Shown: positions 2,942 through 58,300, counted from the first letter of the whole stretch. The stretch is DNA of 59,242 nt, filler included, from Streblomastix strix (GCA_008636045.1; 3 parts of 3 records of this genome joined end to end with filler, not necessarily neighbours in it), one strand, 5' to 3'. Translations and numbers: made by a program. Notes: generated by a model from the sequence alone, not told the origin.

Positions 2942-5900
2942 TCAAGACCATTCCTTGTTATTTTAAAAAGTTTCATTTGCTATTTCATTTTTGCTTTGGT
3001 TGCCTTACTCAGAATTTATTGTGTTATTTGTCGTAGTATTTTGTGTTTGATCCTAATCTTAACTATTTTCTTGTTCATCATTCTTTTTTACAGGTTTAGT
3101 AGAGAAAACTGAATTGAGAAATACTGAAAATTATTCACGTGTCTTAGAAATAGCTTCAGTTACAGAAGGCCAACCTGCATTTGATGGTTGTGTTGTTGAT
3201 GAAATTGATTCAGTTTCAGTTGTTTCTGCTTCATTTGTATCACTCGAACTATGGCTACTATTTGATTATCTTGAACGAACTGATGAATCTGATGAAATGG
3301 AAGATGTTGATGAGAATGAATCCTTGGTTGGTGTCTTCTTAAATGGTGTGAAAAATGAATGTGCAGCAGAAAATAGGCTTCTAAATTGTGGATTTTATTG
3401 CTATTTAGGAGTGTTTGATTGCATTGGAGATATAAACACATTTTGAGAGATACTTCCAACAACTGATGGTGAAGTGATCCTGGGAAGTGGAGATTGAAGT
3501 GATTAAGAAGAAGTATTCTATATCTGAATTGACTGCATGAAAGGAGCAACTTATTAATCTAAATGATAAACACTCAAAGATGAGCTTGAATCTGATCCAG
3601 TATATGAATCATCCAATAACAAACTATCAGATGATCCAGAAGATAATTGTGTCGAATATGATGATGGAGTTGATGATATAAATGATGTTGATGTGCATGA
3701 ATCTGTAGAAGGAGATCGATGCTTATCTTTTTATCTTTATTTTTTATCATGAAGCAAATCTTAGTGAATGTGATTATGATGATCGAAATCATGATGTTAA
3801 TCTTATGTTGTTGAATTATACTTCTATATTTTTTCATTTTCATTTTATAATTCTTAGTCATATAACAAAGGTTTAAGATTTTCATTCAAATTAATTTTAT
3901 CTTTTTTCTTCAAATTCAATTATTCTTTTTATTTAAATTGTTTTTCTTAAGGTGAATATCCTTTTCTATTCCAATCCTACCAATTCTCTTTTATTTCTTT
4001 TTCTATTCCACCAGAAACATTTTATTTTTCTGCATTTGTTATATTTTACTTATTTTATTTTCGTTATTATTATAATATTTAATTCTTCTGCTATATTATT
4101 TCTTCCTCATTTATATTCTATTCAATTTAATCCATATTATTTTTATTTAATTTTTATTTCCTTCCTTATTTTGAATCTTTTCTCTTCTTTTTCTATTTTT
4201 TCTTCTTTTCAACTATTTTCTCTTTCTTTCTTATTTTCCTTTCTTCCTCTTCTTTAATCTTCACTGCATATAATTCCTCTAATGCTGTTGATGCTATTTT
4301 GATCAGATTCAAAAACTCTGGATCCAGATTTGGGATTGATGATGAACTATTCTTAGTGAGTTCTTCTGATATAGTTGATGCATTCTTATTTAATGAAACT
4401 ATTTATTATTAATTTAAATTGGTTGTATTTGAATTGTTTGTGTTTTCTTTTTGAGATGATGATTATTAAGATGAGGATGATTGTTATTGAGATGATGATG
4501 AAGGTTACATAGATGAAGAATGAGTTAATTTATGATTTGTTCCTTAATTATTCTGAGAATAAATAATAATAATAAGAAATATAAAAATAAATATCAGTAT
4601 AATATATAATAAATATTTGTAATTAAACCTTAAATCCAAATTCATCATTTAAAGGAGGACATGAATGAGATGAAAGAGAAGGAGATGATTAAGATGATGG
4701 ATTTGAATCAGGTGAATCACTTCTACCAAAATGATTAGTCTTCATATTATATCCTGATGCATCACCTCTTTATCTAAATGAACCTCCACTACTATTCTTC
4801 TTCTTATCTTTCTATTTAACCAATTCAATCTTCTTCTTCTTCTCTTCCTTATCTTCATCTTCATCTTTCTCTTTCCTCTAATACCATTCTTACCATCTTT
4901 TCTTCAATCCTTTCTTCATTGATCCCATTTTGAGTGAGTGATGATGGTTATGGTGATGTCTTTTAGTTATATAGCTACTACTGAATCCAGGTTATGATCT
5001 GCATTCTTATGGATTCTACTCTTTAATTAATGGAGAGAGAATCTTCTTATTTTACTCTATTTGAGATTTTGGTGTCATTGTTTTATCTGATCCTTTCAGA
5101 AGTTTCTTCTATGATGGAGAAGAGAGAATATATGTTTCACGTTATCCTTCTCTCCAAAGATCATTTAATTCATCAATCCAACCATTAATCTAACATATTC
5201 TCTCAACAGCTTCATCTGAATCACCCAAATACATAAATGACAGATAAGTAGGTTCATTTACTTCTTCATTCTCATTTCCATACTATTCCCATATATTTCT
5301 CTCATTCCTTATACCAAGATTAGATCATGGACCCTGGACTGGATATCTCGATCTATGATAAACTCTTTCTTATTATTATCTGTGATTCTACAATGGACGA
5401 ATTGGGAAGAAGAGACCAGGTGCTTATTTGAGTGTAGAAAGGACCCTCCATATAAATGCCATCCATGATTTGATTTCAGCCCATCTGGATCTTTATTGAT
5501 TCTATTCATCATATGATATGGATTATAGAGATGAAGAAAGAGTATTACGTCTTGAGTCTTATAGTTCTTTTCTTTTTATGGCCTTCCTTTCAGATATTGT
5601 ATTATGAGCATGAGATGATGAAGTTAACATTGATGGTGGGTCACTCATTGCACTCTTATCTGATATATTAATATTCCTCTAAGGACGTGAAGGCACTGTA
5701 TGTGTCTTATTAATCACAAGCCTTGGGACTGTTTATTCAGCACGGAAGTACAATGATGCAAAAGGTTGAACTACAAGAGATGTTCCAATTACAATAACAA
5801 GATCACAATTTTAGAAATCAACAACTTGAGATGAAAAGAAGGAAGCTGGAAATAATGCTTCACCAAATAGAACTACATCTGGCTTTATAATACCACCACA

Positions 5901-6440
5901 TTTAGTGCATGTTGGTATATGTTCAGGATCAATGTTTAATTCATTTATTAGAAAACTGAATTCATAAGATTCTTTGCAATCTATACAATGTGATGTTTTC
6001 AGTGATCCATGTGCTTCTATAACATGTGAAGATGGAACTCCTGCTTTCTCTTCAAGACCATCAACATTCTGAGTATAATTCCTTACAAGTAAACCTTTAT
6101 CATATAATAATCGTATAAAGTAATGTGTAAGAGTTGGATGAGCTCTTCCAAAAGATTTCTTAATGAAAAAACGCAAAAATGCAAAAAATGGTCTCGGATT
6201 GCTTCTGAAATATTATAGAGAGAAAATATTCTCACCGAAAGGGATCCTGCTGTATAGTCCGGTACCAGGTGAGCGGAAGTCGGGTATTCCTGCATTGACT
6301 GATATACCTGCTCCACTTAAAATAACAACTCGTTGGAAGCGTCTACCCAAACCCAATGCAATATCATCGAATGTTAAATTGGCAGGGACAGCACCAGCAC
6401 TTCTACCGAGAATGTTCAGAAGACTCAATCGTTAACCCAT
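2942..6440 (-). CDS. Class I sirtuin (SIRT2/Hst2-like NAD-dependent deacylase) with long low-complexity C-terminal tail; one in-frame TGA
   Basis: Motifs are [35 protein letters not shown], two CxxC pairs, [27 protein letters not shown] and terminal [25 protein letters not shown] is at 6440, an intron at 4553-4628, an in-frame TGA at 5325-5327 and the stop at 2942-2944. Confidence 0.88.
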
Positions 6441-6755
6441 CGCCAATACTTTAATAAATTATATAATAATAAAAAATAATAATAAATTGTTGTTTTCAGT
6501 GTGAAAAAGCATGTGCAATTTTATAAGTTGTTTACAGGATATTTTTATTCATTTGCAAAATAAATATAATATAAATATATTTAGCTATTAAATAATAAAT
6601 GAATATGGTAATATTGTTATATATTTGACTTGAAAATCGGCTATCAATAATTTTCCCAAGTTTATCATCAAAGAACAAATCATTATATTTATTAATATTT
6701 TGAAGAATAACAAATAAAGATACGACAAGTAAAATAACTTAAATTGTTATTTTCC

Positions 6756-8443
6756 TCAGTTTTCAAAAAGATTTGTTCAATTCTTTTACCAACATACTGG
6801 CTTTGAGTCTCACACGATGGGGATGTGCATTTTAACTATGAAATTATAGAGCATCGCAATCGACTACTGTTCCTTATTCCTCCATCCTCTCTTAAATATC
6901 TTCAAGAATGTATTTTATAATTTGATTTTCCTTTCCTTACTTTCTAATTGACTGATGCAATTGGCGAAATGATTCTAAAGTCTCACTCGTTTATTTCATT
7001 CTTGAATTTGGATCTAATTTTTCCTCTTCGTTATTATCTTCATTTCTTTTATTTTAATCTCCAGTATAAATAGTACAACAAATGGATTCACAAATAGCTT
7101 CTGTCACACCAGATGTTGATGCAAGAATTTCTTTTACAATAATTGATCCTTAAGATTATATTGAATTTAAAACATCCAAGCTTATTTACCTGATTTTCAA
7201 CTACATTAAAGAAGGATCAATATTATATGCAGCTTAAAATATATTATTTTTGTTTGATTATATATGAATTCGAGCAAGAGCAGCAATACTTTATAGTAGA
7301 TATGGAGTTATAGAAATTGTTTAAACGAATGGAATATTATGATAAAGAAGAGATAAAAGCAAAATTAACGCAGATTCTATATAATGAGTTGGAAATAGTA
7401 AATTTAGATGTGAAGTTTCTGTTGTTGCAAGAGAAATAACTGTGTATTAATTATCATCAATTTAGTTTTATTTTACTTCTCTTAGTACTAACAATTATTC
7501 TTTTTGATAATGTTTAACAGATTGTGTTATAATGTTGATTATTTTTTCAAGAATTTATGACTTTTCTTACAGAATATTTTATTTTATATTAACATTGTCC
7601 AGAGCAATGCTTGAAAGTAAGCGCATAGCAGATGATGCTATTTCTATGGATGGATAAAGTACATAAGGTTAAATTGCTTAATGAAGCTATCTCTCTCCAA
7701 ATTCATATCTGTTATCTTATGAAAAAATACAAATAAATTATTATTAAAATGAATAAGAAAAAAAGTATACCCCAATCTTCTGCTAGACAACTTATGGACA
7801 TAAGTGCTAATTATATGTTCTATTCATTTAAATTTATACTTCTGATATTTTCATTCACTAAATTATCCTTATCTTTTTTACTCAATATTTTCATAAAAAT
7901 TTCAAGTAATCTATCTATTGTTTAAACGTGTATAGAGATGCTCTTTTTAGTGAGAGAATAAATTACAGCACTGTGAAATATGATATTTTCATCCTAATTT
8001 GTAGGTCCTTATACCATTATTAAGTTTTTAATCTTCCTCATCATATAAGTTTTTTCAAAAATATTACCAAATTTATTTTCCATAGAAATATGAACAATAA
8101 ATGAGCCTCTTAATAGCAAATATTCGCTTATATCAATACTTATTTCATTGAATTTTTAATCTATCCATTTAATTAGAACAGATTTTTCACCTAAAGCATC
8201 TTACAACCATTTCTCTAACTTTCCTTTGTTAATTTTATTTCCTTCTACAATTAATTATATATCTTAGTCGTTCATATGACATAGATTATTCTTAATATTT
8301 TCAATTTAATTGTTAATCTCATTTTCATCTTATTCAAATCCAATTAAAAGTTCTTATACAAGTAATTCAGCCTAATCAACTAAAGATGTATCTTCGTTCT
8401 CTGAAAATCTCGGTCGTTTTATTAGATTTTTTGTTTATTCCAT
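6756..8443 (-). CDS. Hypothetical alpha-helical (ARM/HEAT-like) protein
   Basis: The frame is open from MEQTKNLIKRPRF with TAR=Gln. Introns lie at about 7709-7770 and 6900-6940. The C-terminus is IQERMEEQGTVVDCDALQF...KELNKSFEN*. The fold assignment is inferred from the helical, Leu/Ile-rich pattern. Confidence 0.6.
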
Positions 8444-8943
8444 TATTTTCTAATATTTATCTAAATTAAAAAATAAGAAATAAGAAAAAAATTTGTTGAA
8501 ATTAAAGCAGAAAATTAAAAATATGTTTATGCATCTGTTTTATAACTTGAGATCAGTAATTTGTTTGTATTTAACATTGATTGGATAAATAAATATGAGC
8601 AATAAATGATTTTCTAATAAATAATCTGTTTAATACCTGTAATAAACAGGATGTGAACGATAAATTTTGATATTGGAAATAAATTTTTGGAATTCATTAA
8701 TAATTATATATTAATAGATTTTTCTAATAATATCATATAGTTCTAATTAATCTAACTATAATTATAACTACGTTTTTTAGCTAATGCATCTAAAATAACT
8801 GCGTCAAACGAAACATAAATAAAATGCTGAATATTTGACCACCCTTATCGTATTTCTTAATTTTATGATTTTTAGTTTAGCAAAATACACATAATAATTG
8901 TATTTGATAATTTTTAAGTATATTATTTCATATTTTAAAGTAA

Positions 8944-10001
8944 ATGTCAGCTTAACATGAAAGACTTCTGATATAGGGACCAGGTTTGTTTCATTTACTT
9001 TTTCTTTTTTTAGTATAATTTTTCATTAGAGCATCTTGGACCTAAAAATTATTAAGATATGATAGATGGAAAGGCATATTATGGGTAGAATAAGCTTTTT
9101 TTTACCATATGATATAATTTTACATATATTGTTGTAGTCTTGACCCATATCTTGTTTCTAAGCGAGAAATTTGTTAATATGAGTTTCTTCCTGTGGTATT
9201 TTGATTTTATTTCCAAACTATCTTTTTACTAAGTTCTTCTGATTCAGCTTAATGGAGTGATGACTGATTAGACAAAAACAGCAAAAGAGAAAGTTGAAAT
9301 TATAAATAATCTCCTTCACAAATATTTGGGTCACATTGGATAGAACACAACTCTAATTCCTCCCCTTCAAGCAGACTATGGATTCCACACGTCCATTGGA
9401 GACGGGTGTTTCATCAACATGAACGCCGTTTTCCTCGATACAAACAGAATCAGTTTGGGAGACAGAGTGATGCTTGGTCCAAACGTGTCTCTTATCACTG
9501 CAGGGCACCCAACGGTTATATTTATTCATAATACAAATTGTAACGTTATTTTGTATTTTAGAGAGAAAGAGACAGATCAACAATACCTGACTAACTAGAA
9601 AATTTGGAATTTGCTCTCCCAATTACAATTGGAGATGGAGCCTGGGTTTGTTTTTCAAATTAATTACCAAATATTTCATTGTCCTAAATTTTTAATTAAT
9701 TAAGTTGGGAGCAAATGTGATAGTTCTTCCTGGAGTTACCATAGGTGAGAGAGCTGTTATAGGAGCTGGGAGCGTTGTTACTCATGATGTACCTCCAGAT
9801 ACGATTGTTGCTGGAAATCCTGCACGTTTCTTAAAGAAAATCGATTAAAGTGAAATATTGAGTGATGAAACTTTGAAAGAACTGGAAGCAACAATTAACA
9901 ACCCCAAAAGTACGCCGAGTAGCAAAATTGTTGCTCAGATGACACTTGAAAACTAACATAAAGCAAGATTAGCAAGATAGAAACAAGACGAATAGAAATG
10001 A
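8944..10001 (+). CDS. Maltose/galactoside O-acetyltransferase (left-handed beta-helix hexapeptide family)
   Basis: Spliced translation (about 5 short GT-AG introns) gives [101 protein letters not shown]. Confidence 0.9.
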
Positions 10002-10303
10002 TGTTATAAGTAAGTTTTTCATATTTATGTTAATAAAAATCATTCTCTAACTTTTTAACTATTTATGATCAATCAATTTAAATACTTTTAAAATCATATA
10101 TCATATGTTCTTATATTTTCTTATATCATAAAACATTTAAAAGCATTATTTATTACTGGAATAATAAGTGTGAACTTTACAAAATTTTCAGTTTTATATA
10201 CAATCAACAGTATAATATATTAATAATTAATTTCAAATTAAATCATATTTTACATCTATTTGACATATATAAACCTATATTTGTTTCATTTTCATGCTGT
10301 TGG

Positions 10304-14962: not shown

Positions 14963-15186
14963 AAACCCGTCCAAATATTCATTTCCCAAATGTTCAGTTG
15001 CAATATAAGAGCGAATACACGATCGTCAGAAAAAATTTGTTGTTTGATTTTGTATTTATTTTATTATTAATCATATGGTATTCAATATGAAGAGTAAATT
15101 AAAAATATATAAGAAACAATATTCTACTATATAAATGTATCAACATCAGCAGATAAACAAAAATGAAGTAAGTGAAGTGGAAACAA

Positions 15187-20759: not shown

Positions 20760-23700
20760 CAGTGATGCTATATTAGCGATTTATGTAAATCACTAGATGA
20801 TATGAAAGTGGCCTAGGATATCTGATACACATTTGAAGGAATTATGATGGAAGTAGCAGAGAAAGCAAAAAATTGTTAAATTTCTATCATTATCCAATTC
20901 AGAGATTAAAATTTTTCGAGGAAATTACTTAAAGCGGTGGAAATATTATATGTCCAAACCCGATAGTGGAGCCTGCGTTATAAGAAGAGAAAAGTGGTCT
21001 TGCAATGAATATACTTGAATCTGCAGTAGCAAAAAATTAAGGTGTGGCTAGTACGATTAATAATATTGCCAAAAAATGAGGGTAAATTGATTTGGAACAT
21101 ATTCTAAGTCTGGGATGCTTCTTTGTTTTCAGAGAAAGATGCTTAAATTGAAAGTGAGTCTAGATTGATAGCGGTCAATTGGAAGATAAAATTTGAAAAT
21201 ATCCTGGCAAATGCTAACTTAGAAGACAAATTTTGCTTCTGATTAATCAATCTAAAAATCTAATCAACTTATATATCCAAACTTCTCAAATTCTCCAGCC
21301 ATTACTAAAATACTCCTATCGCATCAATAATCTTGCTTTAATTTAATTTTGAATCCATCACACATGCAAATTCCAGATTATTCAAATTATTAATCAATTC
21401 ATCTTAAATTGGAGTAGTAATAAACATTATAGCCCTCATATTCAGCAACTTAATATTTATTCGCACTAAAATTGAAATTAATCTAATAATATTACTAAAA
21501 TCAATTAATCAGTCATATTCAAACAGTCAATAATACTCTTCTTAATATCTAAATGTTAGTCAAAATAAAATGTTTATAGATCAGCATGTTCTAGCTTTGA
21601 GCAAGATGACTCAGCGCCAGGAGGAACCGATCGTAGATCGTCCAATTAAGCAATATAGAAGATAATAGTCGAGCAGATCATGGCTTCGGGCCTGTAGATG
21701 CTGCAACTGAATTATGGGACCAGAAGTCATAATAAATTAAATAGAATCAATGTTTTTTTGCAGAAGTTTAAATATTCAAAAAAAAATAATGAAGGAGAGT
21801 AAATTAGATTCACTAGAAAAAATGATCAAAAAATCAATTGTCGATAAAATGAATAAATTATTTATCAAAATCAGACGAAATACACACTAACTCAGCAATG
21901 AGGGTCTTTTAACAGAGAACATATTGGAATTTTGTGGTATTTTTCTTTCATAAATCAAGTTTTTTTGAGAAACAAGTGTCATCAGATCAAGATTTAGAAA
22001 TGAGTCAAATAATGAAAGACAGCAACTATCGAGTATCAAACATGAATTACCCAATTGAAAACCTATTAAGTAATTTTATACTTACATCGTAATGAATTGG
22101 AGCAGATAATCTAATCAGGAGAGGTTTCAAACCTTACTGGAATCATTAAGAGTGTCCATCAATTCTACAAAAGAATGGGTACAAACCAATTGAGAATAGA
22201 TCAAAAACTCGAATGATTGCGCTAGATCAACTGATTAAAAAGGAATTGGAAGAGAAGATAATCAATGAAATATAGTGTAAAGATTTGAACTGGATAAACC
22301 CATGCTTTGCAATTCAAAAACTAGGTGTGAACAAGTGGAGAAAAATAACCGACTATTAAATACTCATCAAATTTCTCCTGTCATCTCACTTCATTATGGA
22401 ATATTTCAATACTCTTAGGGAACTTCTGTAAAATTGAGACTGAAAGTTCAAAATCGATCTGGAGCCTACTTTCCACTATATTCTTGTGGATCCTCAATTC
22501 CAATTTTTTCTAGGTTTTACACAAAAGGGAAAGATCTTCAAAAATCGTAACAATGAGCTTTGAAGTTAAATCTTGCGCCTTGAAACTCCACAAAGTTCTC
22601 CTTCCAGTGATCAGAATCATTAGGGAATAATTAAAAATCTGGATAATAATGTATTGCAATGAAATAATTATCATGCATAAGAAAAATGAAGAATTGATGA
22701 ATAATCAACTTCTAATCTTACGAATACTAGAAGAATTCATTTAGAATATGTCGGAAAGTAAATGAAACCTTCAAATTGCATAAGAAGTGATGTTCTTTGT
22801 TTGGCACGATAATTATAATCAATATTAGTTTAAAATATCATTGTAAAGAAAGATATAAATGTTAAAAAAGTGAATAAGATATAGAAACATAGTCCAACGG
22901 AATGAATAGATCCAGATAATGCTACTTGCAAGTTTTATATGATCCTTGAACTTTCTATGACTACAAATAAAGAGGGGAGGATTGTACCTATGAAACTTAA
23001 TTAAGATTATGCATCGAATAGCGAATAGTAGAAGTTTGAATGCATACCTGTTCCTAAATTAGAGCACAATGGAGGAGATTTGCTGGTGGAAAGCAAGAAT
23101 AAAAGATAGCAAGTCAATAACGGCCTAGATTTAAACCCAATAATCCATTTTTACAACGAATGCGTCATAGGATAGTTCGGAACTATCCCTAAATTGCAGA
23201 ATCCAGATTAAGAGATTTGGTTCCAGGGGAACTGATGCAAGAAGTGGAGACTATCCAGTTGCAATCAACAAGAGATTGCGGCGATTCTATTCGGTCTTAT
23301 TCATTCAAAGCCTTTCTTAAAAAGAATGCAGGTCACAGCACTGAAAATAGAGACTGATAGAAGTGCAACTTCTTATAATCTTAACAGAAGGGCAGCTGCA
23401 GCATCTCTCCGTAAGTTAATAGATCGAATATTGAAGTTAGAGGAGGATATCAGTATCCAAATTCATTCCTTTCACATAAAAGGGACAACGAATATAATTC
23501 CAGATTCGCATTCCAAACTTGCAACTTCTAGAGATTATTCACTAAAAAGAAGAAATTCTGTAAGTGATATTGACGATACTAAGAATAAAACCACCTTTAA
23601 AAATGACAATGAATAGAAGAAATAAGAAATTCAAATAATTTGAGATTTCAATCCATGACAACCAAGCAGTAATTATATTTGTCTCTTAATTTCATGATAT

Positions 23701-27783: not shown

Positions 27784-27791
27784 TTTTTTTC

Positions 27792-37825: not shown

Positions 37826-39463
<1,638 letters not shown>

Positions 39464-44469: not shown

Positions 44470-47400
44470 TCAGAATTGGTTTTTAACTTAACGGTTGCAA
44501 GAAACACCTAATAAATCCTACCCATCTGAAACAAATCCCGAATAAGTACAACCACATTCTTCGTTTACCTGCATCCAATTCAACCAGTTCGGCTATTCAT
44601 CTTCTAGCTGTTGCTTCTCATATTACTATGAAAATACTACAGTCTACTTAAGCAACTGCTCATCATCTTGCTCTACCGATTATCTGCCTTAACTCTGGCG
44701 TATTTTCTTCATCTCATTCGAATACACGTCTCTCATCATATCAGCATCTCTAATATTGTGATCTTGCTTCAAGACTTATACGAAATCGGCTACATCATAT
44801 CGTACGTTCAGTGCAATAATGCCTCCAAATAGACGCTGCCCGTTGTCTGGGATATGTAGCGATGGCTTCAATTCATCTTGTTATGGTTCAAACAAGCCAC
44901 TTGACTGATCCTAACTGTTTCCTTTGTTAATCTGATCTGAACGTCCAAAATTGTCATCTTCCTCCTAGCATCTCTCTTTTTAGTCTTCATCAATGCAATA
45001 TTTGATTCTCTTAACATGTTCTATGTCAACTTCAAATTTTGTCTTCTCGTGAATTCTCATCTCATTTGCTCTTCTTTCATCTGTGAACTCTTTCCTTTTA
45101 ATATAAAGTGTTTGTTATTATTATTATTATTATTATTACTGTTATTGCCATGATTAGTTTTAAACTGTAGAATCAACCATGAAATGATTACCTCCGATAT
45201 TATCAAAACATTATATCTCAGGAATACACACACTTCTCTTAAAATCAGAGACTAGATGGGCGTTTGCCAATGCAAGTGAAACATTTGTGAAAGAAGGCAT
45301 CCTTTGCCTGTTGGCTGTAGCAAACCTAGCAGTCATTGCTTGTCGAAGATCATCATATTACATCTAACGACAGCACGGCATATCAGCAAAATCAACCAAG
45401 TACATGTCGTAATCATCTTTTGGAAGCACAGGTTTCTGGTAGTACCTCCTCTTGGGTGTATACTCACAGACGTCCTCAGTACAAAACGAATGAATAACCT
45501 CGTCAAATTAATGTGACTCTACCATATCAACGTCATATTGTGTGATCGATCCGCATTTGAGCGATTCGCAATTATCCGGAATGTTGTGCGTTGACCTCAT
45601 TTGCTCATATTGCTAGGGATCGTATTCTTGTTTATCTGGGTTAAGTATAGTTTCCTATAACTCTACTAACTTGTCTGCGATTCTGTTTCGTAGCTTAGAC
45701 TGGTCGTACATTTACAGTGCATAACTCAATACAAGAACTGCACAAAATTGGCAATCCATCCACTACATCTAAAACGGCATTTAAATTTTGTGGCTCTGAA
45801 GGACTTTTTCGTCGTAAGTCAGGTAGCTGAAATTTCCAAACATCTCGTACTAGCAGTATGTAGACATTCTTAGCAGTTATCGCATTAGGTGGAATTGTTA
45901 TTACGAATTTTATATGCTTATATTAGATGATAGCTAATCACAAATGAGAAGGAGCGGAGCCTACGAGGGAACAGGATAGTTCATTATCTCGTAGGAATAA
46001 GACGGATATAAACTTGGCAGCTATATTTAATTTAAGCTATTCTCATCATATTCAATTTAATGAGCGAAGCGATCAAACAGTCTGTAATGTTTTTTTGCAT
46101 CCAGAAGTTGTAATTGCAGGTCATTAGATTATGTTTAGTTTGCCATGCCTGAAACTTGTTTTGAACTACCAATCTATTCGTTTGTTCTCTCGGAATTTGG
46201 AAACTTCAAACCTAGCCCTAGCCTTTCTTCTTCAATACGAACTTCTTCTTCAACAGGCGACAAAAATAAGTCCTATAAAAATATTTAGGCTACATTATCA
46301 ATATCTTTATTTGGGACTGTATGAGTTATTTGCGTATTAATTCCGTTATAAATACTATTGACTATTGCTTTTAAATCTTTGTCGTCTTCCAACTCTTTTT
46401 GTTGATACTAGCTAGAAATTAATTCTTCAAGAACACGAAGACGATGGGGAGGTTAATGTAGACGATTCAGTAATTATTGAAGTGGAAAATACTTCTATAT
46501 CTCTGACAGTGATACAGAAAGCTGTTAAACGGACAAAGCAGGTCCCCCATTTTCAAGCAAATTCGTACATTTCATTAATAATTAATCATAAGGTTCAGTA
46601 AATGGATCAAATGTGGCGCATAGCTCAGTATCTTGCAATTTGATGGACTTTGGAATACTACCGACGATCTTTGTTTACCTCGAATCTTAAGAAACATATT
46701 ATTCTTGTTACTATTATTGTGATGTGCCATGCTCATCCATTGAAGTATTATTTTCTACAATGATCTTAAATCTTTTTATTCCTTCATCAGTTACATTACT
46801 ATCAATTGTGCCCCTTTTACGTTTAATAGCTGTATTGACATTGAAAGGATTATAGCATCTAACAAAATCAAGCCAGAGCCGGAAGAATACATTCATTAAA
46901 GAGTTAGACATCTCTGGCACTTCTAGCCCTAGAATATCTAATATACCGACATTTTTCACGTTGCAACCTAGCAGAAGATTGGAATGCCCATGATTGTATA
47001 CACAAGTAGCAATCAATTCTTTATCTGCAAATCTATGCCCGAGCCCACCAGTATTCTAGGATTAATTATATGCAAAAATGAAATCGTCATCAAATTTCAA
47101 AGATGATGGAATGATGGGAAAACTCCTCATGCCATTAGGTGTGTTTTTTCCTAATAATGATGGCAGTGAAACTTAAATAGGTATAGTAGCTTGAATAGGA
47201 ACTGAATTACGGTTGCACTACAACGAATAATTTAAAAGATACGCTACAAATGATCCATGAGGCGAATTGTTAAATTCTTACAGGAATGATAAGTCTTTGG
47301 ATAGTAACTTTTTAAAGTACTCATTTTCGTTGTCGCCATTCTATTAGCTTAATTTTGAAGCGATCATGTTATATCGCTCAATTCTAGCATCCATCAATTT

Positions 47401-50400
47401 GTCTCGAATAGATTAAAATTATTAATGACTCCAATCTATATCTCCTTTTGTCGATATATCAAAAAAGCTAGGCTTGTATATCTGTCTGAGCTATGTACAA
47501 AACATTGAGACTGAAAATTGATACAAATCTATATGTTTATTGATATGTTGATTATTTACAAGATTTGAAATAATTGTATTTTCCAATTATCTTACTTTTA
47601 TATCTTCAATATTGTCGTTTGAATATCTATTTATCTTAAATGATAAATAAGGTACATACTTTAATGAGGAATATACATCTTAAAATCCCATCTCCTTTCC
47701 AATTATAGGGTTTTAAATTGATATTTATCTAGAAATGTTCTAATTATAATAAAAGTGGTATGTTTGTTAATAGACACTTTTAAGATTATCGATGGCTTTA
47801 GGTTGAGTAACTATTTTTCTTGTTTAATCTCTCCCATCTGATTCTGTATGTGTTAATAATGACTTAATAAATTAAAAATTAGGCAATTGTACAGTCTACT
47901 GTATATCGCTGGTTCTAAGTATGTAGTTACCAATAGCCGAGAACATAACATCAAGTAACTCTCCATCCATACCCTCGGATGAGATGGATTCAAGAAGGCA
48001 AGACTAGGTTATGTCGTGACAATTTGGCCCTGAAACAGGATAGGGAATAGCAAGTTTGGAATTGCCTATTTTAAACGTCCTTATGCGAAGTAATGTCTAC
48101 CGGGATATCTGAACAAACAACGGGGAGCATGGAAGTGCAAATGTTGGCAGTATCAACTCAGTCTGTTCTTTACCTTCTTCTTTACCAAGTTTCTCTAATT
48201 CCTACTTATATGACTTGCTGAGTATAGTATTCCTATTCAACATGTACTCGTCAATACTCACGTGCACTGCAACTGGCAGGCGCAATGAAGGCAATGATTT
48301 GATTATATTGAGCACTGATGGAACTATCTCGAACTACTGATACTGTCCATCAATCATTATCTGTCTTAATCGCTCTGCTGGGACAACACTCCTGTTTCCT
48401 TCACGTAGATTGTCAGCCCAAGGTGTAGGAAGGATGCGGAAGGGCTAGAAGATTGGAAACATGAAGCATCTAATCGTACTGAACCAGAAATGGAGGACCC
48501 TCATGAAGTGTATCATAATATAGTATGAGTCGGGATTTGGTGGAAGAATTACATCATCCCTTAGGAGGTGGTGTAATAGGGTGTTGTTATTTGCTCCTTA
48601 TCTCTCAAATCTCTCAAAAACAAAGACTGTCCAATTTGATCTGTCTACGAGATCCATCCTAACCTACCTTTCGTTCTTCCATTTGTATCCAGCAGGACTG
48701 GGGCGATGAGGAACGTAATTGGTACTTTCCGAGCTCTATCTCTAACTCTTTTATGGCGAATTAAGCAACGCTAGAACAACTTACTAAGCATCTTAATTAA
48801 AATTCACATATAGCGGCTACTGTTACATTATGTTACAAAAAGGTATACTTAGAGTCAGGACTATCACATTACCATGGTTTATTTATCTGACGCATTCTTA
48901 TGTTTTGATATTATAACTAGCTGCAAACTTCATCAGTTCGTCAATCAATCCAAGTTTATTATCATCCCTCCTCATTTCTATTCTTTTGTCTATGTACGTA
49001 ACTGTTATGTTTAATGTTGGGAGGATGTACTACTTCATTTGATGAATAATATATTGCTACGATAAATATGTACTGTAGCCTTATTTCATGCCTTAATTAT
49101 CGATTGAATTGCAAGAATCTATTTTGGACGGTCCTATTGTCGTCCATATGCCGATGATACGTATATCTGTTGAATTTTATATATTCACTTATATATCAGA
49201 TAGTTCTATCCAATGATCATCCCAAAATATTCTATGAAGAGGAACCTCGAATTCTTGCTACTAAGGAACTTGCGATTATTAATGAAATGAGTTATATACA
49301 GACGTAGCTAATTATAATGAAAACTTTCTCTAGCCATCCTTGCCAAATTCATATTGGAACTTACTTAGCAAGTTGTTTATTGTTTATTTTGAAGGTGCAC
49401 TTCCTGCTATTTTCTATTAGTCAGGATGATCTAACAAATAAATACTGACACTTTCTAGCTCCTACAGTTGATTTTCATGCTAAATATATTAGATATCCTC
49501 TTTGTTATCTTACTACTAATTACTTTCTTCCAAATTCTATTAAATCGACGTTCGGTTGCTAAAATTATTATCAAGATTCTAGGTACATTTGGTTAGTATT
49601 TGAGCAGCTGCTTCTCTATCTCTGCAGTCTCTCCACTCGCTAGTCGATAGGATTGCACTAATAATATATGTAAGAATCAGTTCATCCATCAGCAACAAAT
49701 TAACAATAAGATATCTGAAAGAATTATAACATTAAACTCGCCCAGATGATCCACATTGTTTTGTGCTGCTAAGTTGCTACTCTCTCACCAGTTTAATCGG
49801 TCGCAATTCGCTGTTTCTTAGCATGCATAATGTTGCAATACTTATTTCATCAAAATTAACTTTATTCGCTTCCGATCCTTTGACAGTACATTCTAAGCTG
49901 TCGTCATTCCTAATGTCTCTCATTATTAAGTGTGTAGGTTTCTCCTCTTTGATCCGACTCAATATATCACCAACAGCTCTTCATATGAGTGAAATGTATA
50001 GGATGAAATTGCACATAAACAATTCATGTCTGAATTGCCTTGCTATAATGTCTGAAGGGTAATACCTTATGTGCTGGAACACTGGCTGGTCCTCGAGAAG
50101 GAATTATCTGAGGATTTGTTACTCACTTCGAGGATTTGATGTTCTAGAATGATAGTATGAAGTTGTAAATCTTGTTCGTTTCCTTATATCATTGTCAAAT
50201 TACATTGATGGTATCCTAGAAAATTATTATTCTATTAATTGATCAATGTTAGTTAAATGATCATTAGAAATGTTAACTTATGGAATTATAGTTATTTTCT
50301 TTGGATCACTACTACTACCGTTTCTGAAATTATTTGCCCATCTCTTACTCATCTTTCTTTCTGTAGCACACACTTGTCTGTATAGATCTGTGTCGAAGTT

Positions 50401-53400
50401 GCATTCTATCTAAGTTCTCATTAATTATATATTAACTAATTCTAGGCGCTTTGCAAAATTATAAAGCAGAGGTCCGAACCCATCCATTATTACTTGCTCA
50501 TCGCTTGATAGATTAGAGGACTTCTCCTTGAAACTCTAGGTAGAGTCTATCTTTTGAATATTTTATTCTGTCTTCAATTATTCTAGTTTTCTCTTCATCC
50601 TCAAAACATCATCATCGTCAAGCTGCTTGAATATTTGAACTAGAAATGTATCGTTAAGCTCATCACGATTGTCTTTTTATCCTTCTGATGGTGTCTGCTT
50701 GTTATGTGTTTACTCACTATTATTCAACACTAGCGAAAGCGCAGTTATATATAGGGTAGCAGACAAATAATGCATTTAATCTATGGTATTGTCATATGGT
50801 TGAATTTTAATCGGTCTAGGATATAAAAGCATATGTTACATGTACATTGGAGATATTATCAAATCGACGTACAATTAATCTGGTGCTAGCCGCTCCCCCG
50901 GTAACAAGTGAACAAGAAACGGCTCTATATCATGTTGCAAAGTTTTCAATATCTAACTCGGATTGACTTATTCCGTGTATGAATGCCAAACTGGATTCCC
51001 TGAGCCATCATCCTTATCCATTTGGGAATGTTTTATATCAACTGCTATATGAGGATTTAAAGTAGATGAGAACTGAGCATATGTAACGTTTTGTAGAAAT
51101 TAGATGGTAAGATCACACTTTTCTGGCGTAACTTATTCAAGTTACTATAGAATAGTATGGAAGAGAGACAATTTATTAGTATTATTGTTAAGATTGTTAC
51201 TGCTGCTGTTGCCATTCAAACCCTTTTTTAACTAGGAATGTACTATCGCAAGGGATATCCAATTTGATTCTCCATCATTAATTTCTTATTATACTTACGA
51301 TTGACTAATAATGACATTTGTTTCGTTCTCTAAAGTCACATCTAGATCAGCTTTTGTATATTTTGTTCTAGATTTTTATTCATATAATACTACATAACAA
51401 TCAATAGCATGTATTAATGATTATACTCCTCTGCCCAAAGTAAAATTCCTCCCGTAGTATTCACCATTGGTAAAATTTGGTGGATCCCAAGTACAATCAT
51501 ACTACTAATTTGCATTGTATATCTAAGTTTATTCTTAATCGACTGAATTTACACAGTTGATATCGTTAGCAATAGAATCAATGCTCTATTTATTTATATA
51601 ATCTTTTTCCATTGGTTTACTTGCATCCAGACTAATTTCGTCAATCGTGATTTTTTTGAGCCATTGTAGTCCTTCAATCGTACTTTTTTCTGGCGTACAG
51701 AATTTATTGTCGATGTAAATATGGGTGTTATTTGATATATGTTGAATAATACGACAGAGAAGTAGGCGTATGTCTATGAAACATTAGAAGTTAAGATCTA
51801 AATCTTTCCACATCCCTTAGGCTACATTTTATCCATTCGCCTAACGTTTTATAGATTCAGTTAGATCTTATTACCTTAATTCACTGTTAGGTTATTTGTC
51901 TCCTTTGGATTATGTCTACTATAAATTGTTCAAATATTCTAATTTATTCAGAAAATAATCAGCAAAGTATATAAAATGAATCGCCCCGTACATATCACAA
52001 TAATCCTTACAGTGAGTGTTGAGTTAAAATGGTGGAGTGACCAACAGCTGCCTTCGTTACTCGCGTTTTTTTTTCAGCTCGTAATGTTGTCGTTGTAGAT
52101 GAAGTGGTTTCTGTTAAACAGATGGGAATACTTTAGGAAGAAGTAATTCTTCGAGTTCAAATTCATATTCAGAGCGTAATATATTCTTTCTTTAAAAGTA
52201 TAAACTCACAAATTCATACTAAGGAAGATCAAATAATCTAAGAACATTAATATTGATGCTCCGATTGAACAAGCCACATAGCATTTCACCCACATCTTGG
52301 AATTCAAACTAACTCCATCCGATGCTCTTTCCATACTTATATATTATTCTTCGGATTGTGTAGTTTATTGGAAAGTGCTAAAGCAATTGACGTCCACCAA
52401 ATGGGAACATAAACTATAGTAGCGACTTATTCAGTTCGTGCGATATGTATTAGTTAATGCTATATATGTTGAATGGAATATTCGTTCCTATTGAACTATT
52501 GATATTAGAATTAATTCGGGAATTTTAATCCTTTTATATATTTATTTACTAATCTATGATTGATTGGGTCTATTGGTGAATAATCATTACGTGCGGAGTT
52601 TAAATAGAATCTTATCCTGATTATAATGATGATGACTATGACAATGATGATGATGACGATGTTTGAAAATAGGGGAATATATCATGAATTACTTTCATTA
52701 ATGAATCATTATTGATAATGTTTCTTTTATCCACTTTTAATATATCAATTGTCTTACAATTCACTTAATTTTCATGTGAGCTTTTAGAATCTTGCTTTTA
52801 CACAGTTTATTATTAATTCAATTTGACAGATTCTTAGTCAACTGATTGAGTTATATCTAAATGAGGACTTTTCAATTCTATAAGACTTTCATATTGATGT
52901 AAGTTTATCTTTGATGATTCCAAATAGAAGAACCTTGACTAGCTGCCGTCATCATCCATGTCCTGTAAATAAGATTTTATGTCTTTAGATTAATCAGTTG
53001 TTATAATATCTTTTTATAGATCATCAGAAAGATTTGATTACTTAACCTATTCTTTATGTATAGATTTCAATCTACTCACATACTATTAATACTCTATTTC
53101 CAACCCTTCATTGACCGCTTCTTAAAGTTATTATTTGGCATTCAATTGTTAATTATAATCTTTCAGCTGAAATATCAAATTTCGTGGATTTTTTATTTTT
53201 TTCTATTTGTATAAGTTGTGTGATTAAAGACCATCGTAGAACACCCAATTATCATTGTGAATATTCATCATGTATGTATTATAATGCCCACCGCAGCCTT
53301 ATGTGGTATATGCAGATACAGCTATTAACTCATACCTACGAATTTCTTATACACCATTTATGATGAATTTAACATCCTGAGATAATGGTACTGTTACTTC

Positions 53401-54546
53401 GGACTTGTACTGTGGCATAAATCCTGAAATTGCATTTATATACAATATTTATGGCACTCTAGAGAAATATTCAAATTCGTAAAATGAACCTTTAGTGTTG
53501 CACTCATCACATTTGCATTATTCATTAGCATTATATTAAAACCAGACATTCATAAATGTGAGCAATTAGTCACAAATTGTTGTATTTGTAATTTGTCCAG
53601 TCATTTAAATCATTTATGTAACCTTTGGTCTAGAAATGCAATGACTGCATGTAGGAAAATACATCAGTCTTCTAAAATCAGTATTAAACAGGTTTCCCAC
53701 AAAAGTTGAGCCAACTTATTCAGTAAGGTCCGCTGATAACTCATACTGTATCCATTAAAGAATATTAGTTGTAAATTCATCTGCGTCTTGTTGTTAAACT
53801 AACAGATAATCCTCACTTTGACGAGTAGCAGAATGTTATAAGGCATATCTTAATTCTACACCACTAATTATTTTCCGTTCTGATGTAAAATAATTTCTGA
53901 TGAATTTAGCATATTGGAAAGAAACTCTAGAGTTAGCAATAGCATTAAGTCTCAAATGACCTAAAAATTTATACGATAAAAAGAACGTCGAAAGTGGAAT
54001 AATACGAGCAAGTGTATGCAATATACTCATATAACATGTAAGTTTGTTTGATGACATAACTGGACGTTAATTATTGATAACAAGATGTAAGTCTGATACC
54101 TTATTCTTTGACTTGCGATTGGATACATTTTGTTGTTAATTCTTGTTATAATTGTAAATTTATTTGTAGCTGGATGGATTATTTGGGCGTGTTCTGGACA
54201 AGTCTATGTATTCATTAAATGATTCAGCCTTATCACTTCCAAAGCCTGATGTAAGTACCTAAACACTATAATCAGTATTATAGAGACGTTACCCTGAAAG
54301 TTTTAATTCTTCAACTGTTGCTTCGGTAAATTTTCTATTTTTTTAATATTATTTTATTTCAAATTCGTCATAGAGCTATAACTTACATTAATTTACAATC
54401 TCTTATATGATCCTTTAGAAGGAGAAGGAAATAGGCACCGACACATGAATTGGTTGGGATCCTTTGTCTTTATAGCAGATAAAAGTCATGGTCTGAGATT
54501 TTGCTTATATGATATTATTATTAGGGCTTGTAAATGCTTTATTCAT
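44470..54546 (-). CDS. Giant protein of about 3,350 aa: N-terminal USP (C19) deubiquitinase domain plus CE-clan (Ulp1/C48)-like modules
   Basis: One frame runs from ATG 54546 to TGA 44470-44472 with a single internal TGA (49981-49983). The USP has TCYMS (Cys 54034), QQQDADEF, Zn-finger CxxC, GGHY (His 53284) and WVFYD (Asp 53233). The C48-like module has NHGHSNLLL...GILD and PFQMQWMDCQF. Confidence 0.85.
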
Positions 54547-55386
54547 AGCTCTAAAGAGATTTTCAAAAAAAAAAAAAATAAAATAAAATTCACACTATAA
54601 TTTCATACTAAACTAATAAAAAGACCGGAAGTTTAATATTATTATTGCATGTGAACATAAATTACGAAATTTGTTTCATTAATATGTTTTGATGTAACTA
54701 TATATTTTTGTGATTTCTTGATTTTTTTTTTTTTAAAAAAAAACAAAAAAAAAAAACGGTTGTTCACTGATCGTTATGATTATAATAAATATAATTTTAA
54801 TTTGGATTATGTGTAGTTAAAGGAATTTAATCAATTGTATGTTTATTTGAAACTTTTACTTTATTTATATATCAATCTTTTTGTGTAAAAGATTTGTATA
54901 GAAAAAAAAATAAATAAATAAATAATTTTATATGTTATATCTATATTAATCAATATTATCTAATTCTGTGTTAAAGATTATTTTCATAATTTTAGTTTAA
55001 TCATCAAGTTAAAATATTCGAGTAAAAATTATTTTTTTTTCCAACTTTGAATTATTTGAATTATTTCAGTTCTTAAAATGAAAATAAAGTTTCACACTTG
55101 TAAATTTTCTTATATTATATTGGATTAATAAATATAAACTAAGCTCATAGTGTGTATTATTTTAACATTGTATTTATATATATACATATATATTAATATT
55201 ATCAGTATCAAATCCTTAATAAATATATTTACAATAGGATTATACTATGTTTGATAATAAATTAAAATTTAATGCAGTTATAGTTTGATATAAATCTCTC
55301 ATATATTTATATGTATATATAATTTATTTGCAAAACTCATTTGTATTTATAAATATTATCAAAAGGCAAATGAAATGGAATATTAC

Positions 55387-58300
55387 TCAGACACGATATG
55401 GTTTAAAAAATACATATTTGTTATAAATAGAATTCGTTAACATTTATCCATCATCAATATTACCCAAACTGTAACTGATGCCTTCGAAATTCTACTGAAG
55501 TTAATATAGGGGCTGTATAAATTTCTTTGATTTATTTCTTTGTTATTTTTTGAAATATATTAAATCTTCTATATCTCTGCATATATGAAGAACCGAGGAA
55601 AGTGGGAATTCATTCATTAATGATTATTTATATTCTTCAGTCATATCTTCACCACTAAGGAATGTTTCATCAAAAGCAATCTACCACAACAACTAGATAT
55701 ATTCAAGGTACATCCTATTGGACTGTACCTTAAAGCCAGTCATTATTATTTCCCAAATTCTCTGAAATATTTCAGATCTACCCTTGTATACATAGCGTGT
55801 ATAATAGCGAAAGACAGTATCATGTTAAGGACATGCAGGATATTTATGAAACTGAGATTGAAGAAGTTCTTCGGAAGAAGACGAGTTCAAGATAGGTTAT
55901 TCAATATGATTATCGGTGAATTGTAAAAGAACTTCATAAAACGATATAAGAGGGTGTGTTTAGAAAAGTTGCAAGTGATTATTATTTGCTCGTTTCAATA
56001 TGTCCTTTGCAAATGTTCTAATGTCCGAATTGATTTGACTAATTCGTACTGCAATTTATTCTAATATTAACGTTGACATGGAAGTTAACTTCTTATTAGA
56101 TGACACTATTTATATTAAATGTTTTTTGTTTAATAATCCAATAAATTGATTAGTTCGAGTATCGACTTAGTTACCATAAAAGATTTTGATCAACTCAAAC
56201 TAATGATCGAGGAAATTGTCCCGAGGTTATTGTTATATAGCTAGATATAAGGGTAGATATAAGAAGCGTCTCATTTTTATGTTAGATTATGAATCATTGC
56301 TTAAGTTTTTGATTTAAAACACATGGATATTCTATTCATCTATATTTTGTATATCTTAATAAGTATTAATATTAGCTTACCAATCTTATACAGTCAGATA
56401 TTATAAAATTTGCAAAAATTTGTCATTTGATGCTTTATTGCTTTCATCGTATACATATTAGTTGGGTATTTCAGTTTGTCTATTAAATCTCATTTCATAT
56501 TCACTTTAACATTACTATACATATTGTACAACTAAGCTATGAATAAAAGCAGTATTATGGAGTGGATCACTATCATAAACGATATCGTTTGGATATTATC
56601 GGGATTAATATTGGATAATGCCTTTTTTAATTAATTATTTTAATTTTTTGTCAAGATATTCACATTCATCGTCATTATTATCACCCGATTTAATACCATT
56701 ATTAATATTTGATTAATTGTCATCGTTAATTAAATCAAATTTGTTTAATAAATCCTATAATTAGCTAAAATTTGTCAAACCTTCTGAATTCGAATAAATA
56801 CGAAAAGCTAAAAATTCTAAGTATTTAAGACGTGGTAAAGGTTAGGAAACCATCGATGCTAATTACTTATATGAACAATGATACTCTGCAGATTAATCTA
56901 AGTTCGAAGAATGACTAATTTTATCAGGATTATTGTATTATCCAGTCGATGCTTTATCTTTCTTCTATATATTTCTCCTGAAATTGGTAGTTAAACCTTC
57001 AAGCAACTCTGTATAGTTGGCATTAATAGTTATAGTCGGCATTTTGACATTTTTATCGTATTAGCACACACTACGATATCTAGATAAAAACCTTGAATTT
57101 TTGAGTTGGTCAAATATTTTTAATATGTATTCTATATTAGTATGAAAATAGGAACAATCATCAAATTTGATGCCTGTGAATATATATTGCAATATTGATA
57201 TTGGATTGCCGTCTGTTTCGCTATCTTAAAAAGACATACTTTGGATTTAACGTGAAACTTCATCTATGATGTTGTTGGTAATTATGCTTTTTTCTGTAAG
57301 AATATGCATATCATTTTCAAAATCTCGACTGCCATCTTGCTTAATATCGCAACGGTTAGGGCGGCAGTTCTCTTCCGATTTAACCTATATTTTTTTAAGT
57401 TATTTAATTTTGTCATCAGCAAAGGAATTTTCCTATAATGCCTAACAGGAATGTGGATGCTGTTCTTCTTCTATAATGCAATATCTGCGCATAAGACATG
57501 TAACTTACCGACTTAACAGTGATAAACGGTTTGAACCAGGTAAAAAATATCTTGTACTATTAATGGATTTTGAGCTGTTTGAATATCTCATGTGTTAATA
57601 AATGAAGAATCTATACGAAGGTTCAGACATGACAATATTACTAAGTTAATCGTTCTACGTATTAGAATTCTGATGCGATTCACTCGTAAGATAGTCAGCC
57701 CAATCATCTGGAAGAACTCAATATGGTAGAAAAGATGGAAATACAGGATTTGGCACAGTACTTAACCAAAAATGAAGAACTTCCATATATTCAACACCGT
57801 CTTATAAGCACGATTTAATATCTATGCTACAGAAAACAAAGACTATCCAATTGGACTATTGCTGATAGTCCAGACAGTTCTAACAGAGACTCTAATTTAA
57901 AAACTAATTACCTTTGGATGTTTTTATATCCAGTATTGCAAGTGTAACTTTGTTCTATTTTTCATTAAAGTTAACGAACATATTTCCATTCATACCGGAT
58001 ACGTATCTGTCTAATGATATTGTTATATAACTATTGAACTTGTTGCTAATTAGACGACCTTATAAATCATAATAAGTTATATTGTATTATTTCGAACTAT
58101 CCTTTTCAGATGATTTATATTAATGGTACGTTGCAATATCAAATAAAACCTAATAATGCGTCTTATTTTCTGTATTTATGTTAAACCATATTGTTATCTT
58201 AGGTATATGGTTCTTAGTTAAAACTCTCTAAAACTTATCAGAGTAAGTAATTGTTGAATCATCAAGACCAAACAAACCATTACCAAATGTTTGTAATCCT

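What the first reader, a model, noticed from the sequence alone, without database searches (positions are those of the whole stretch)
5325..57720. Single in-frame TGA in four otherwise intact long ORFs: possible sense use of the only remaining stop codon
Seen in the sequence: TGA is the terminator of every complete gene here. Yet lone in-frame TGAs occur in the sirtuin (5325-5327), the Q-rich ORF (38030-38032), giant ORF 1 (49981-49983) and giant ORF 2 (57718-57720), each followed by hundreds of open codons. Trp would fit some contexts (GP*SN, LI*RA, PY*VL). Established knowledge: karyorelict ciliates and Condylostoma use TAR=Gln with context-dependent TGA=Trp/stop. Against this: conserved Trp sites here use TGG, PUS3 and RPL9 have no internal TGA, and the ORF 2 TGA aligns with Arg in its paralog. 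Nonsense alleles or amplification errors (TGG/CGA to TGA) are therefore a real alternative.
Basis: partly seen in the sequence, partly recalled or inferred. Interest (0 to 1): 0.7.

Follow-up and report, generated by a model that had tools for sequence, protein, structure and literature searches.

The report
Lone stop codons in termite protist
Four long genes of the termite-gut protist Streblomastix strix, which already reads TAA and TAG as glutamine, each carry one TGA stop codon in mid-frame; these are most likely ordinary gene-breaking mutations, but they occur as often as sense TGA does in ciliates that have no dedicated stop codon, so that rarer reading stays open.

Summary
The window is three contigs of the oxymonad Streblomastix strix, whose TAA/TAG=Gln code is published. 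All four internal TGAs are at the stated places, with coding-like sequence on both sides and no intron typical of this genome around them. The sirtuin TGA is in the DNA: two contig sets of one sample carry it (depth 117 and 3.6). It lies in a loop upstream of the conserved last strand and helix of the SIRT2 fold. The only TGA that can be aligned (ORF 2) faces Arg in 2 of 2 paralogs, not Trp; mutation alone gives about 30% Arg-derived TGAs. Polymorphism of 0.3-0.6% would yield 1.5-3 such TGAs if unselected. Best reading (0.55): recent nonsense alleles in relaxed or sheltered genes. Against it: 4 in 9,429 codons (0.042%) equals the sense-UGA rate of Condylostoma magnum, and the sirtuin is a conserved host gene. 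Context-dependent sense use (0.25) is therefore not excluded. No genome, RNA, tRNA or eRF1 could be examined. A genome-wide tally on the public assembly would settle it.

The parts
2942..6440 (-). SIRT2-like sirtuin gene, 1,140 codons when spliced (exon 1 4629-6440, intron 4553-4628, exon 2 2942-4552)
   Evidence: Pfam SIR2 E=5e-51; NCBI S. strix protein KAA6400819 is 100% identical and ends at the internal TGA; intron and open spliced frame
5325..5327 (-). Internal TGA, codon 372 of the sirtuin, in a lineage-specific disordered insert
   Evidence: carried by X1 contig 2 (depth 117) and X3 contig 24
5157..5252 (-). Conserved last strand and helix of the sirtuin catalytic domain, downstream of the TGA
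   Evidence: 72% identical to P0002 and 56% to Paratrimastix P0004; matches the C-terminal part of human SIRT2 structures; pLDDT 89-97 at residues 401-430
37826..39463 (+). Gln-rich low-complexity ORF, cut by the contig end; no family found
38030..38032 (+). Internal TGA, codon 69; first Met after it is 286 codons on
44470..54546 (-). Giant ORF 1 (3,358 codons) with an N-terminal ubiquitin-specific protease domain (about 53188-54042)
   Evidence: Pfam UCH E=6e-16, residues 169-453
49981..49983 (-). Internal TGA, codon 1522 of ORF 1; no homolog covers it
48436..48438 (-). Arg codon (CGC) of ORF 1 that aligns with the ORF 2 TGA
55387..59241 (-). Giant ORF 2 (5' end cut by the contig end), member of a mosaic multi-copy family with ORF 1 and KAA6389543
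57718..57720 (-). Internal TGA, codon 508 of ORF 2; Arg in both paralogs, inside a block 63% identical to KAA6389543
19684..19783 (.). Spacer between contigs 1 and 2 (not genomic)
   Evidence: contig length 19,683 given for P0001
39464..39563 (.). Spacer between contigs 2 and 3 (not genomic)
22150..23550 (+). Probable decayed reverse-transcriptase/RNase H remnant, used as a rough local control (8 TGAs, 2 frame changes along a path read by eye)
   Evidence: identity rests on recalled motifs and one weak match (E=0.18); Pfam and the codon model did not confirm it

Best explanation
The four lone TGAs are likely true premature stop codons, made by recent single-base mutations in genes that are probably under relaxed selection or sheltered by another allele, in an organism that reads TAA/TAG as Gln and likely still stops at TGA. 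Shown: the code-6 background, the positions, the absence of a typical intron, the sirtuin TGA in DNA, and Arg at the ORF 2 position in paralogs. Inferred: an Arg codon (CGA or AGA) as the source of the ORF 2 TGA, sheltering or relaxed selection, and loss of function. The sirtuin allele would lose the last strand and helix of its NAD-binding fold.
For: ORF 2 TGA is Arg in 2 of 2 paralogs, one with flanks almost identical; ORF 1 has CGC there, so a CGA-to-TGA step is simple. With the spectrum of 39 listed letter differences, 1.8% of point mutations in these genes make TGA: 41% from Gln, 30% from Arg, 11% from Trp. A lineage 0.3-0.6% from its neighbours would carry 1.5-3.1 such TGAs if unselected (P of 4 or more 0.07-0.37). 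Such variation exists: an X1 contig differs from the window at 10 of 1,696 letters. Two of the four ORFs belong to a mosaic multi-copy family with no detectable relatives outside S. strix. Three lie in unconserved or low-complexity sequence. None sits at a conserved Trp, Cys or Sec column. A decayed retroelement nearby shows 8 TGAs to 2 frame changes by my reading, so four TGAs without a frameshift would be no surprise (P about 0.3-0.4). In 111 S. strix entries of a hand-curated enzyme table (parts 1-2 of 7 of one supplement) I counted only 2 same-enzyme pairs with adjacent gene numbers; this is a weak sign against wholesale gene splitting.
Against: 4 in 9,429 codons (0.042%) and 4 TGA to 66 TGG match the sense-UGA rate reported for C. 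magnum (0.042%) and Blepharisma (0.059%). Two of about nine host genes are hit, which is a lot for nonsense alleles. The sirtuin segment after the TGA is conserved across Preaxostyla. In the independent run X2, 3 of the 4 listed differences after the TGA are synonymous (23% expected; P=0.04), though this bears on the question only if X2 also has the TGA, which the output did not show. The window and X1 differ at 5919 yet share the TGA, so it may be older than some polymorphism. The neutral expectation assumes no selection at all. No intact allele was seen at any site. If frameshifts arise as often as or more often than nonsense changes, 4:0 has P of 0.06 or less, and my retroelement control is unconfirmed.
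Confidence: 0.55

Rival explanations
1. S. strix reads TGA as an amino acid when it lies far from the poly(A) tail and as stop near it, as in Condylostoma and karyorelicts. The likely residue is Trp through a near-cognate tRNA, or Arg as reported for some spirotrich ciliates. A leaky version, in which basal readthrough is high enough to make such TGAs tolerable, is included.
For: Rate matches C. magnum. [quoted passage not shown] The sirtuin needs the segment after the TGA to complete its fold. All four TGAs lie 477 or more codons before the end of the frame. Convergent stop codons lie only 172 and 224 nt apart, so 3' UTRs are short. No frameshift in any of the four ORFs. TGA=Arg with TAR=Gln has been reported (PMC10089648).
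Against: No TGA at a conserved Trp column (weak: P=0.4-0.6 at a 5.7% share). The one alignable site is Arg, which mutation explains as well. No paper in my searches reports it. No tRNA, eRF1, RNA or peptide evidence.
Confidence: 0.25
2. Amplification or assembly errors in a single-cell genome made the TGAs.
For: The assembly is described as a fragmentary single-cell assembly (PMC10703272). Three of four sites were not checked against runs.
Against: The sirtuin TGA is in a 2,795-nt contig of depth 117 and in a second run of the same sample. Four errors that all make TGA would imply about 220 base errors in 28 kb (1.8% share), but X1 contig 2 differs from the window at only 1 of 2,795 letters.
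Confidence: 0.08
3. The TGAs are removed from the mRNA by splicing or RNA editing.
For: Some frame-keeping GT..AG pairs span three of the sites. No RNA could be laid.
Against: Eight introns read in the window are 47-84 nt, 7-17% G+C and start GT(A/T)(A/T). Candidates at the sirtuin, ORF 1 and ORF 2 are 31% G+C or more, and the Q-rich site has none under 147 nt. No contig skips the sirtuin TGA.
Confidence: 0.05
4. The TGA is a real stop and the downstream part is a separate gene or is made by re-initiation.
For: A Met lies 20-31 codons after the TGA in the sirtuin, ORF 1 and ORF 2. The NCBI sirtuin model ends at the TGA.
Against: No A+T-rich spacer lies between the halves, and the frame is kept. 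Homologs are single chains across the sirtuin and ORF 2 sites. The Q-rich gene has no Met for 286 codons.
Confidence: 0.05
5. The TGAs are selenocysteine codons.
For: S. strix has SelB and selenophosphate synthetase (supplement of PMC10703272).
Against: No SECIS match in the window at the gathering score or at E up to 5. No site aligns to Cys or a redox motif.
Confidence: 0.02

Closest known systems
Streblomastix strix nuclear code, NCBI table 6 (TAR=Gln, TGA=stop; Keeling and Leander 2003, seen only as cited in PMC13002328 and PMC11687900)
   Same: Same organism; TAA/TAG are the commonest Gln codons (752 of 1,049); TGA ends 9 of 9 genes checked.
   Different: The passages I read say nothing about internal TGA.
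Context-dependent codes of Condylostoma magnum and Parduczia sp. (Q/Q/W; Swart et al. 2016, PMC4967479)
   Same: TAR=Gln, TGA as terminator, internal TGA at 0.04% of codons and far from gene ends.
   Different: There UGA aligns to Trp, occurs in essential genes with dN/dS 0.013, and is crossed by ribosomes and peptides. Here the one alignable site is Arg and none of these tests could be run.
Q/Q/R code reported for spirotrich ciliates (Chen et al. 2023, PMC10089648)
   Same: TAR=Gln, with internal TGA facing Arg in homologs.
   Different: 987 TGAs were counted in U. setigera coding regions, five in one gene, all at Arg. Here there is one site, also explained by a CGA or AGA mutation.
Premature termination codons in multi-copy or sheltered genes (general knowledge)
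   Same: Single-base origin, one per ORF, in unconserved sequence or a repeated family, with sequence variation among cells.
   Different: Two of about nine host genes hit, one of them a conserved sirtuin, is a high load; no intact allele was seen.

Membership tests
NCBI table 6 code (TAR=Gln, TGA=stop) | TAA and TAG read as Gln in conserved genes | tested here: met
   Pfam domains and a 100% identical NCBI protein under table 6
NCBI table 6 code (TAR=Gln, TGA=stop) | TGA terminates genes | tested here: met
   9 of 9 gene ends checked are TGA; coding score falls after 7 of 7 tested
Context-dependent Q/Q/W code (Condylostoma, karyorelicts) | Internal UGA at about 0.04-0.12% of codons | tested here: met
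   4 of 9,429 codons = 0.042% against 0.042% and 0.120%
Context-dependent Q/Q/W code (Condylostoma, karyorelicts) | Internal UGA aligns mainly to conserved Trp | tested here: inconclusive
   1 of 4 sites alignable; it is Arg in 2 of 2 paralogs; 3 sites have no aligned residue
Context-dependent Q/Q/W code (Condylostoma, karyorelicts) | In-frame UGA in essential single-copy genes under purifying selection | tested here: inconclusive
   Sirtuin motif after the TGA is conserved; 3 of 4 listed X2 differences are synonymous, but X2's codon at the TGA was not shown; copy number and essentiality unknown
Context-dependent Q/Q/W code (Condylostoma, karyorelicts) | Sense UGA absent near transcript ends; stops close to poly(A) | tested here: inconclusive
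   All four are 477 or more codons from the frame end; convergent gaps of 172 and 224 nt; no transcript ends available
Context-dependent Q/Q/W code (Condylostoma, karyorelicts) | Translation through UGA shown by ribosome profiling or mass spectrometry | not testable with these tools
   No such data reachable
Context-dependent Q/Q/W code (Condylostoma, karyorelicts) | Decoding tRNA (tRNA-Trp with a 4-bp anticodon stem, or a UCA anticodon) and altered eRF1 | not testable with these tools
   No tRNA in the window; no genome held; 4-bp stem mechanism seen in an abstract only
Q/Q/R code of spirotrichs (Chen et al. 2023) | Many internal TGAs at Arg columns of conserved genes, at high allele frequency | tested here: inconclusive
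   One Arg-aligned site in a lineage-specific repeat family; 30% of mutational TGAs come from Arg codons anyway
Selenocysteine recoding | SECIS element downstream | tested here: not met
   No SECIS family match at the gathering score or at E up to 5; a divergent SECIS could be missed
Selenocysteine recoding | UGA at a Cys/Sec catalytic column | tested here: not met
   Sirtuin site is in an unaligned insert; ORF 2 site is Arg
Nonsense alleles | TGA present in genomic DNA | tested here: met
Nonsense alleles | One step from the ancestral sense codon | tested here: met
   ORF 2: Arg in paralogs, CGC in ORF 1; others unknown
Nonsense alleles | An intact allele or ortholog exists in the population, or selection is relaxed | tested here: inconclusive
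   Contigs drop variants; X2 state unresolved; ORF 1 and ORF 2 are a mosaic family

The most novel reading that the evidence does not exclude
Streblomastix strix has no dedicated stop codon: besides TAA/TAG=Gln it translates internal TGA (as Trp, or as Arg as the one alignable site hints) at a Condylostoma-like rate of 0.04% and stops only near the poly(A) tail. It would be the first metamonad with all 64 codons as sense, missed because the code was read off a few highly expressed genes, and its public proteome would be wrongly split at about one gene in five.
Probability: 0.25. Interest if true: 0.82.

Novelty: already known. Interest (0 to 1): 0.45.

Why it matters
If the TGAs are nonsense alleles, the finding is ordinary, though a load of two broken host genes in about nine would say something about mutation build-up in a host-bound, probably bottlenecked symbiont. 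If they are translated, S. strix would join the few eukaryotes with context-dependent termination and extend it to a new supergroup. That would test whether losing UAR as stops predisposes UGA to follow, and thousands of its public gene models would need joining. The test is cheap because the assembly and new single-cell transcriptomes are public.

Tried and rejected
No whole genome is held, so no genome-wide tally, tRNA or eRF1 look-up was possible. No RNA holder was listed for the sirtuin region; this is no evidence on expression. Only 1 of 4 TGA sites was laid against runs; X4 did not cover it. X2 contig 12 covers it but 3 of its 6 differences were not printed; since every printed row has a run 31 or more letters from a contig end, I infer they lie near the ends, where the TGA also lies (21-23 letters in), so its state is open. 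Homolog searches for the ORF 1 TGA region found nothing (188 candidates, none passed, lengths 458-1,458 only; 1 hit, a 40-residue piece far from the TGA). Exact look-ups of 7 predicted half-genes found none. Two metagenome scans (216 and 166 pattern matches) and one viral scan (444) confirmed no relative. The language-model atlas gave no result for ORF 2. Rfam found no SECIS. No shared readthrough context: the base after TGA is T, A, A, G inside genes and A, C, A, T, T, T, G, T at 8 ends. I first took the rarity of TGA beside TGG (P about 1e-23 against free use) as evidence against sense use and dropped it after reading the Condylostoma rate. I first took the lack of frameshifts as evidence for readthrough and weakened it after the retroelement count, itself unconfirmed. 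One row (place 4580, a repeat pile-up) was left out of the 40 listed differences before the mutation spectrum was computed; those 40 are the printed part of 121 and mix strains. The S. strix genome paper (Treitli 2019) was not held, and its text and supplements may bear on ploidy and annotation. Earlier scan notes held nothing on this genome.
Full report
What the window is. It is three contigs of 19,683, 19,680 and 19,679 bases joined by 100-base spacers. The sirtuin matches NCBI protein KAA6400819 of Streblomastix strix at 100% identity on a 19,683-base contig, and two further hits are S. strix proteins. S. strix is an oxymonad of termite guts whose TAA/TAG=Gln code is published (passages of PMC13002328; PMC11687900; PMC10120064). 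The background code is therefore known; only the internal TGAs are in question. No whole genome was held.

Each TGA is at the stated place and is the only internal stop of its ORF. The frames stay open for 768, 477 (contig end), 1,836 and 776 more codons, whereas 7 of 7 true ends tested meet another TGA within 28-107 codons and lose their coding score. A scan of all six frames shows no frameshift in these four ORFs. The Q-rich ORF is cut by a spacer, so its run to 40474 is not genomic.

Splicing is unlikely. Eight introns read in the window are 47-84 nt, 7-17% G+C, start GT(A/T)(A/T) and end in AG. Frame-keeping GT..AG pairs over the sirtuin, ORF 1 and ORF 2 TGAs are 31% G+C or more; the Q-rich site has none under 147 nt.

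The sirtuin TGA is in the DNA. Of 4 runs laid on 2700-7900, X1 holds a 2,795-nt contig of depth 117 that differs from the window at one synonymous place only, and X3 (same sample) holds a 398-nt contig with no difference; both span the TGA. X4 does not cover it. X2, from another study, covers it with a 221-nt contig, but 3 of its 6 differences were not printed, so its codon is unknown. Contigs drop variants, so a second allele cannot be excluded.

The sirtuin TGA cuts a conserved fold. It lies at codon 372 in an insert that is about 150 residues here, longer in the unnamed ortholog P0002 and short in Paratrimastix and animals. About 25 codons later comes the segment that matches the last strand and helix of SIRT2 structures, 72% identical to P0002 and folded at pLDDT 89-97 while the insert scores under 50. 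The NCBI model stops at the TGA. That this segment helps bind NAD is recalled knowledge. Of 4 X2 differences listed after the TGA, 3 are synonymous against 23% expected (P=0.04). This shows constraint in the lineage's past but not that the TGA-bearing allele is constrained.

What residue the TGAs replace. Only the ORF 2 site can be aligned. It faces Arg in ORF 1 (codon CGC) and in KAA6389543, inside a block 63% identical. The ORF 1 site has no homolog, the sirtuin site is in an unaligned insert, and the Q-rich gene has no family. All 66 Trp codons counted are TGG. So Trp has no direct support. Arg does not decide the matter either: with the spectrum of 39 listed differences, TGAs made by mutation would come 41% from Gln, 30% from Arg and 11% from Trp, and a Q/Q/R code has been reported in spirotrich ciliates (section read, PMC10089648).

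How many TGAs each reading predicts. Mutation: 1.8% of point changes make TGA, so a lineage 0.1, 0.3 or 0.6% from its neighbours would carry 0.5, 1.5 or 3.1 if unselected (P of 4 or more 0.002, 0.07, 0.37). One X1 contig differs from the window at 10 of 1,696 letters. This needs selection to be nearly absent, which is plausible for ORF 1 and ORF 2 (a mosaic, lineage-specific family, one with a ubiquitin-protease domain) and less so for the sirtuin. Sense use: 4 in 9,429 codons is 0.042%, the value Swart et al. give for C. magnum; Blepharisma has 0.059% and Parduczia 0.120% (passages of PMC4967479; P of exactly 4 is 0.20, 0.15 and 0.008). The 9,429 codons are 11 exon segments and leave out three short genes. 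The lack of frameshifts has P from 0.002 to 0.2 depending on the assumed ratio. A decayed retroelement in the middle contig gives 8 TGAs to 2 frame changes by my reading, which makes 4:0 unremarkable (P 0.3-0.4), but that reading rests on recalled motifs and one weak match.

Other recoding. S. strix has SelB and selenophosphate synthetase (supplement file 5 of PMC10703272), so UGA=Sec probably exists. No SECIS was found and no site is at a Cys column. No tRNA gene lies in the window.

Literature. Searches joining Streblomastix or oxymonad with TGA/UGA, readthrough, eRF1 and selenocysteine listed no paper on internal UGA in this organism. The 2026 oxymonad study holds no 'UGA' or 'TGA' and inferred codes from tubulins. 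I saw passages of PMC13002328, PMC10703272 (plus a supplement search and parts 1-2 of 7 of one file), PMC6759080, PMC10120064, PMC4967479 and PMC11687900, one section and passages of PMC10089648, and only the listing of PMC13092985. Keeling and Leander 2003 and Treitli 2019 were seen only as citations.

Verdict. Nonsense alleles in a code-6 organism are the most economical reading (0.55). No site shows the signature of recoding, the one alignable site is a textbook nonsense route, three sites lie in unconstrained sequence, and a code that splits about one gene in five has gone unreported in a genome curated by several groups. Context-dependent sense use keeps 0.25, because the rate matches Condylostoma exactly and one TGA cuts a conserved host domain while being real in DNA. 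Errors (0.08), splicing or editing (0.05), split genes (0.05) and Sec (0.02) make up the rest. These odds are my judgement. A genome-wide residue tally on the public assembly would decide.

Noticed in passing
window 19684-19783 and 39464-39563: Artificial spacers join three unrelated contigs; ORFs listed across them (15187-19788, 38033-40474) are chimeric.
   Followed up: yes
window 44470-59241 (-): Two tandem giant intron-poor ORFs of a S. strix-specific mosaic family: ORF 1 has an N-terminal ubiquitin-specific protease domain with Cys and His boxes present; ORF 2 shares near-identical blocks with KAA6389543 separated by unrelated sequence. No relative outside the species was found; possibly cargo of a large mobile element.
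   Followed up: partly
window 4629-6440 (-): The sirtuin and the unnamed ortholog P0002 both carry a long low-complexity insert (about 150 and 360 residues) at the loop before the last strand of the catalytic domain, and a long tail; Paratrimastix lacks the insert.
   Followed up: partly
window 22150-23550 (+): Probable decayed DIRS-like reverse transcriptase/RNase H (label recalled, weak match only) with many TGAs.
   Followed up: partly
window 26027-26650 (+) and 26864-27686: Integrase core remnant (Pfam rve, E=1e-4, below the curated cut-off) beside an imperfect inverted repeat of about 820 bases folded on itself (77% identity); may be a Polinton-like remnant.
   Followed up: no
window 9250-10001 (+): Gene with two introns that looks like a bacterial-type maltose/galactoside O-acetyltransferase (name recalled, not tested); possible lateral transfer.
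   Followed up: no
window 6121-7816: Run X1 holds a second haplotype (10 differences in 1,696 letters), and run X2 holds both a close (about 97%) and a distant (about 84%) relative of the sirtuin gene, so more than one Streblomastix-like lineage is in that sample.
   Followed up: no
window 1-19683: CpG is depleted in the gene-rich contig (observed/expected 0.45; 0.31 in the sirtuin) but hardly in the other two (0.82, 0.88), a possible sign of gene-body methylation or of codon use.
   Followed up: no
PMC10703272 supplement file 5: S. strix thioredoxin reductase and SAH hydrolase are each listed as two adjacent gene numbers; they may be genes split at an internal TGA (Sec in the first case) and are worth checking.
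   Followed up: no
window 11216-11299 (+): An 84-nt intron in the Suf/RRM gene keeps the frame and has no TGA; under this code such introns are invisible to ORF finders.
   Followed up: partly
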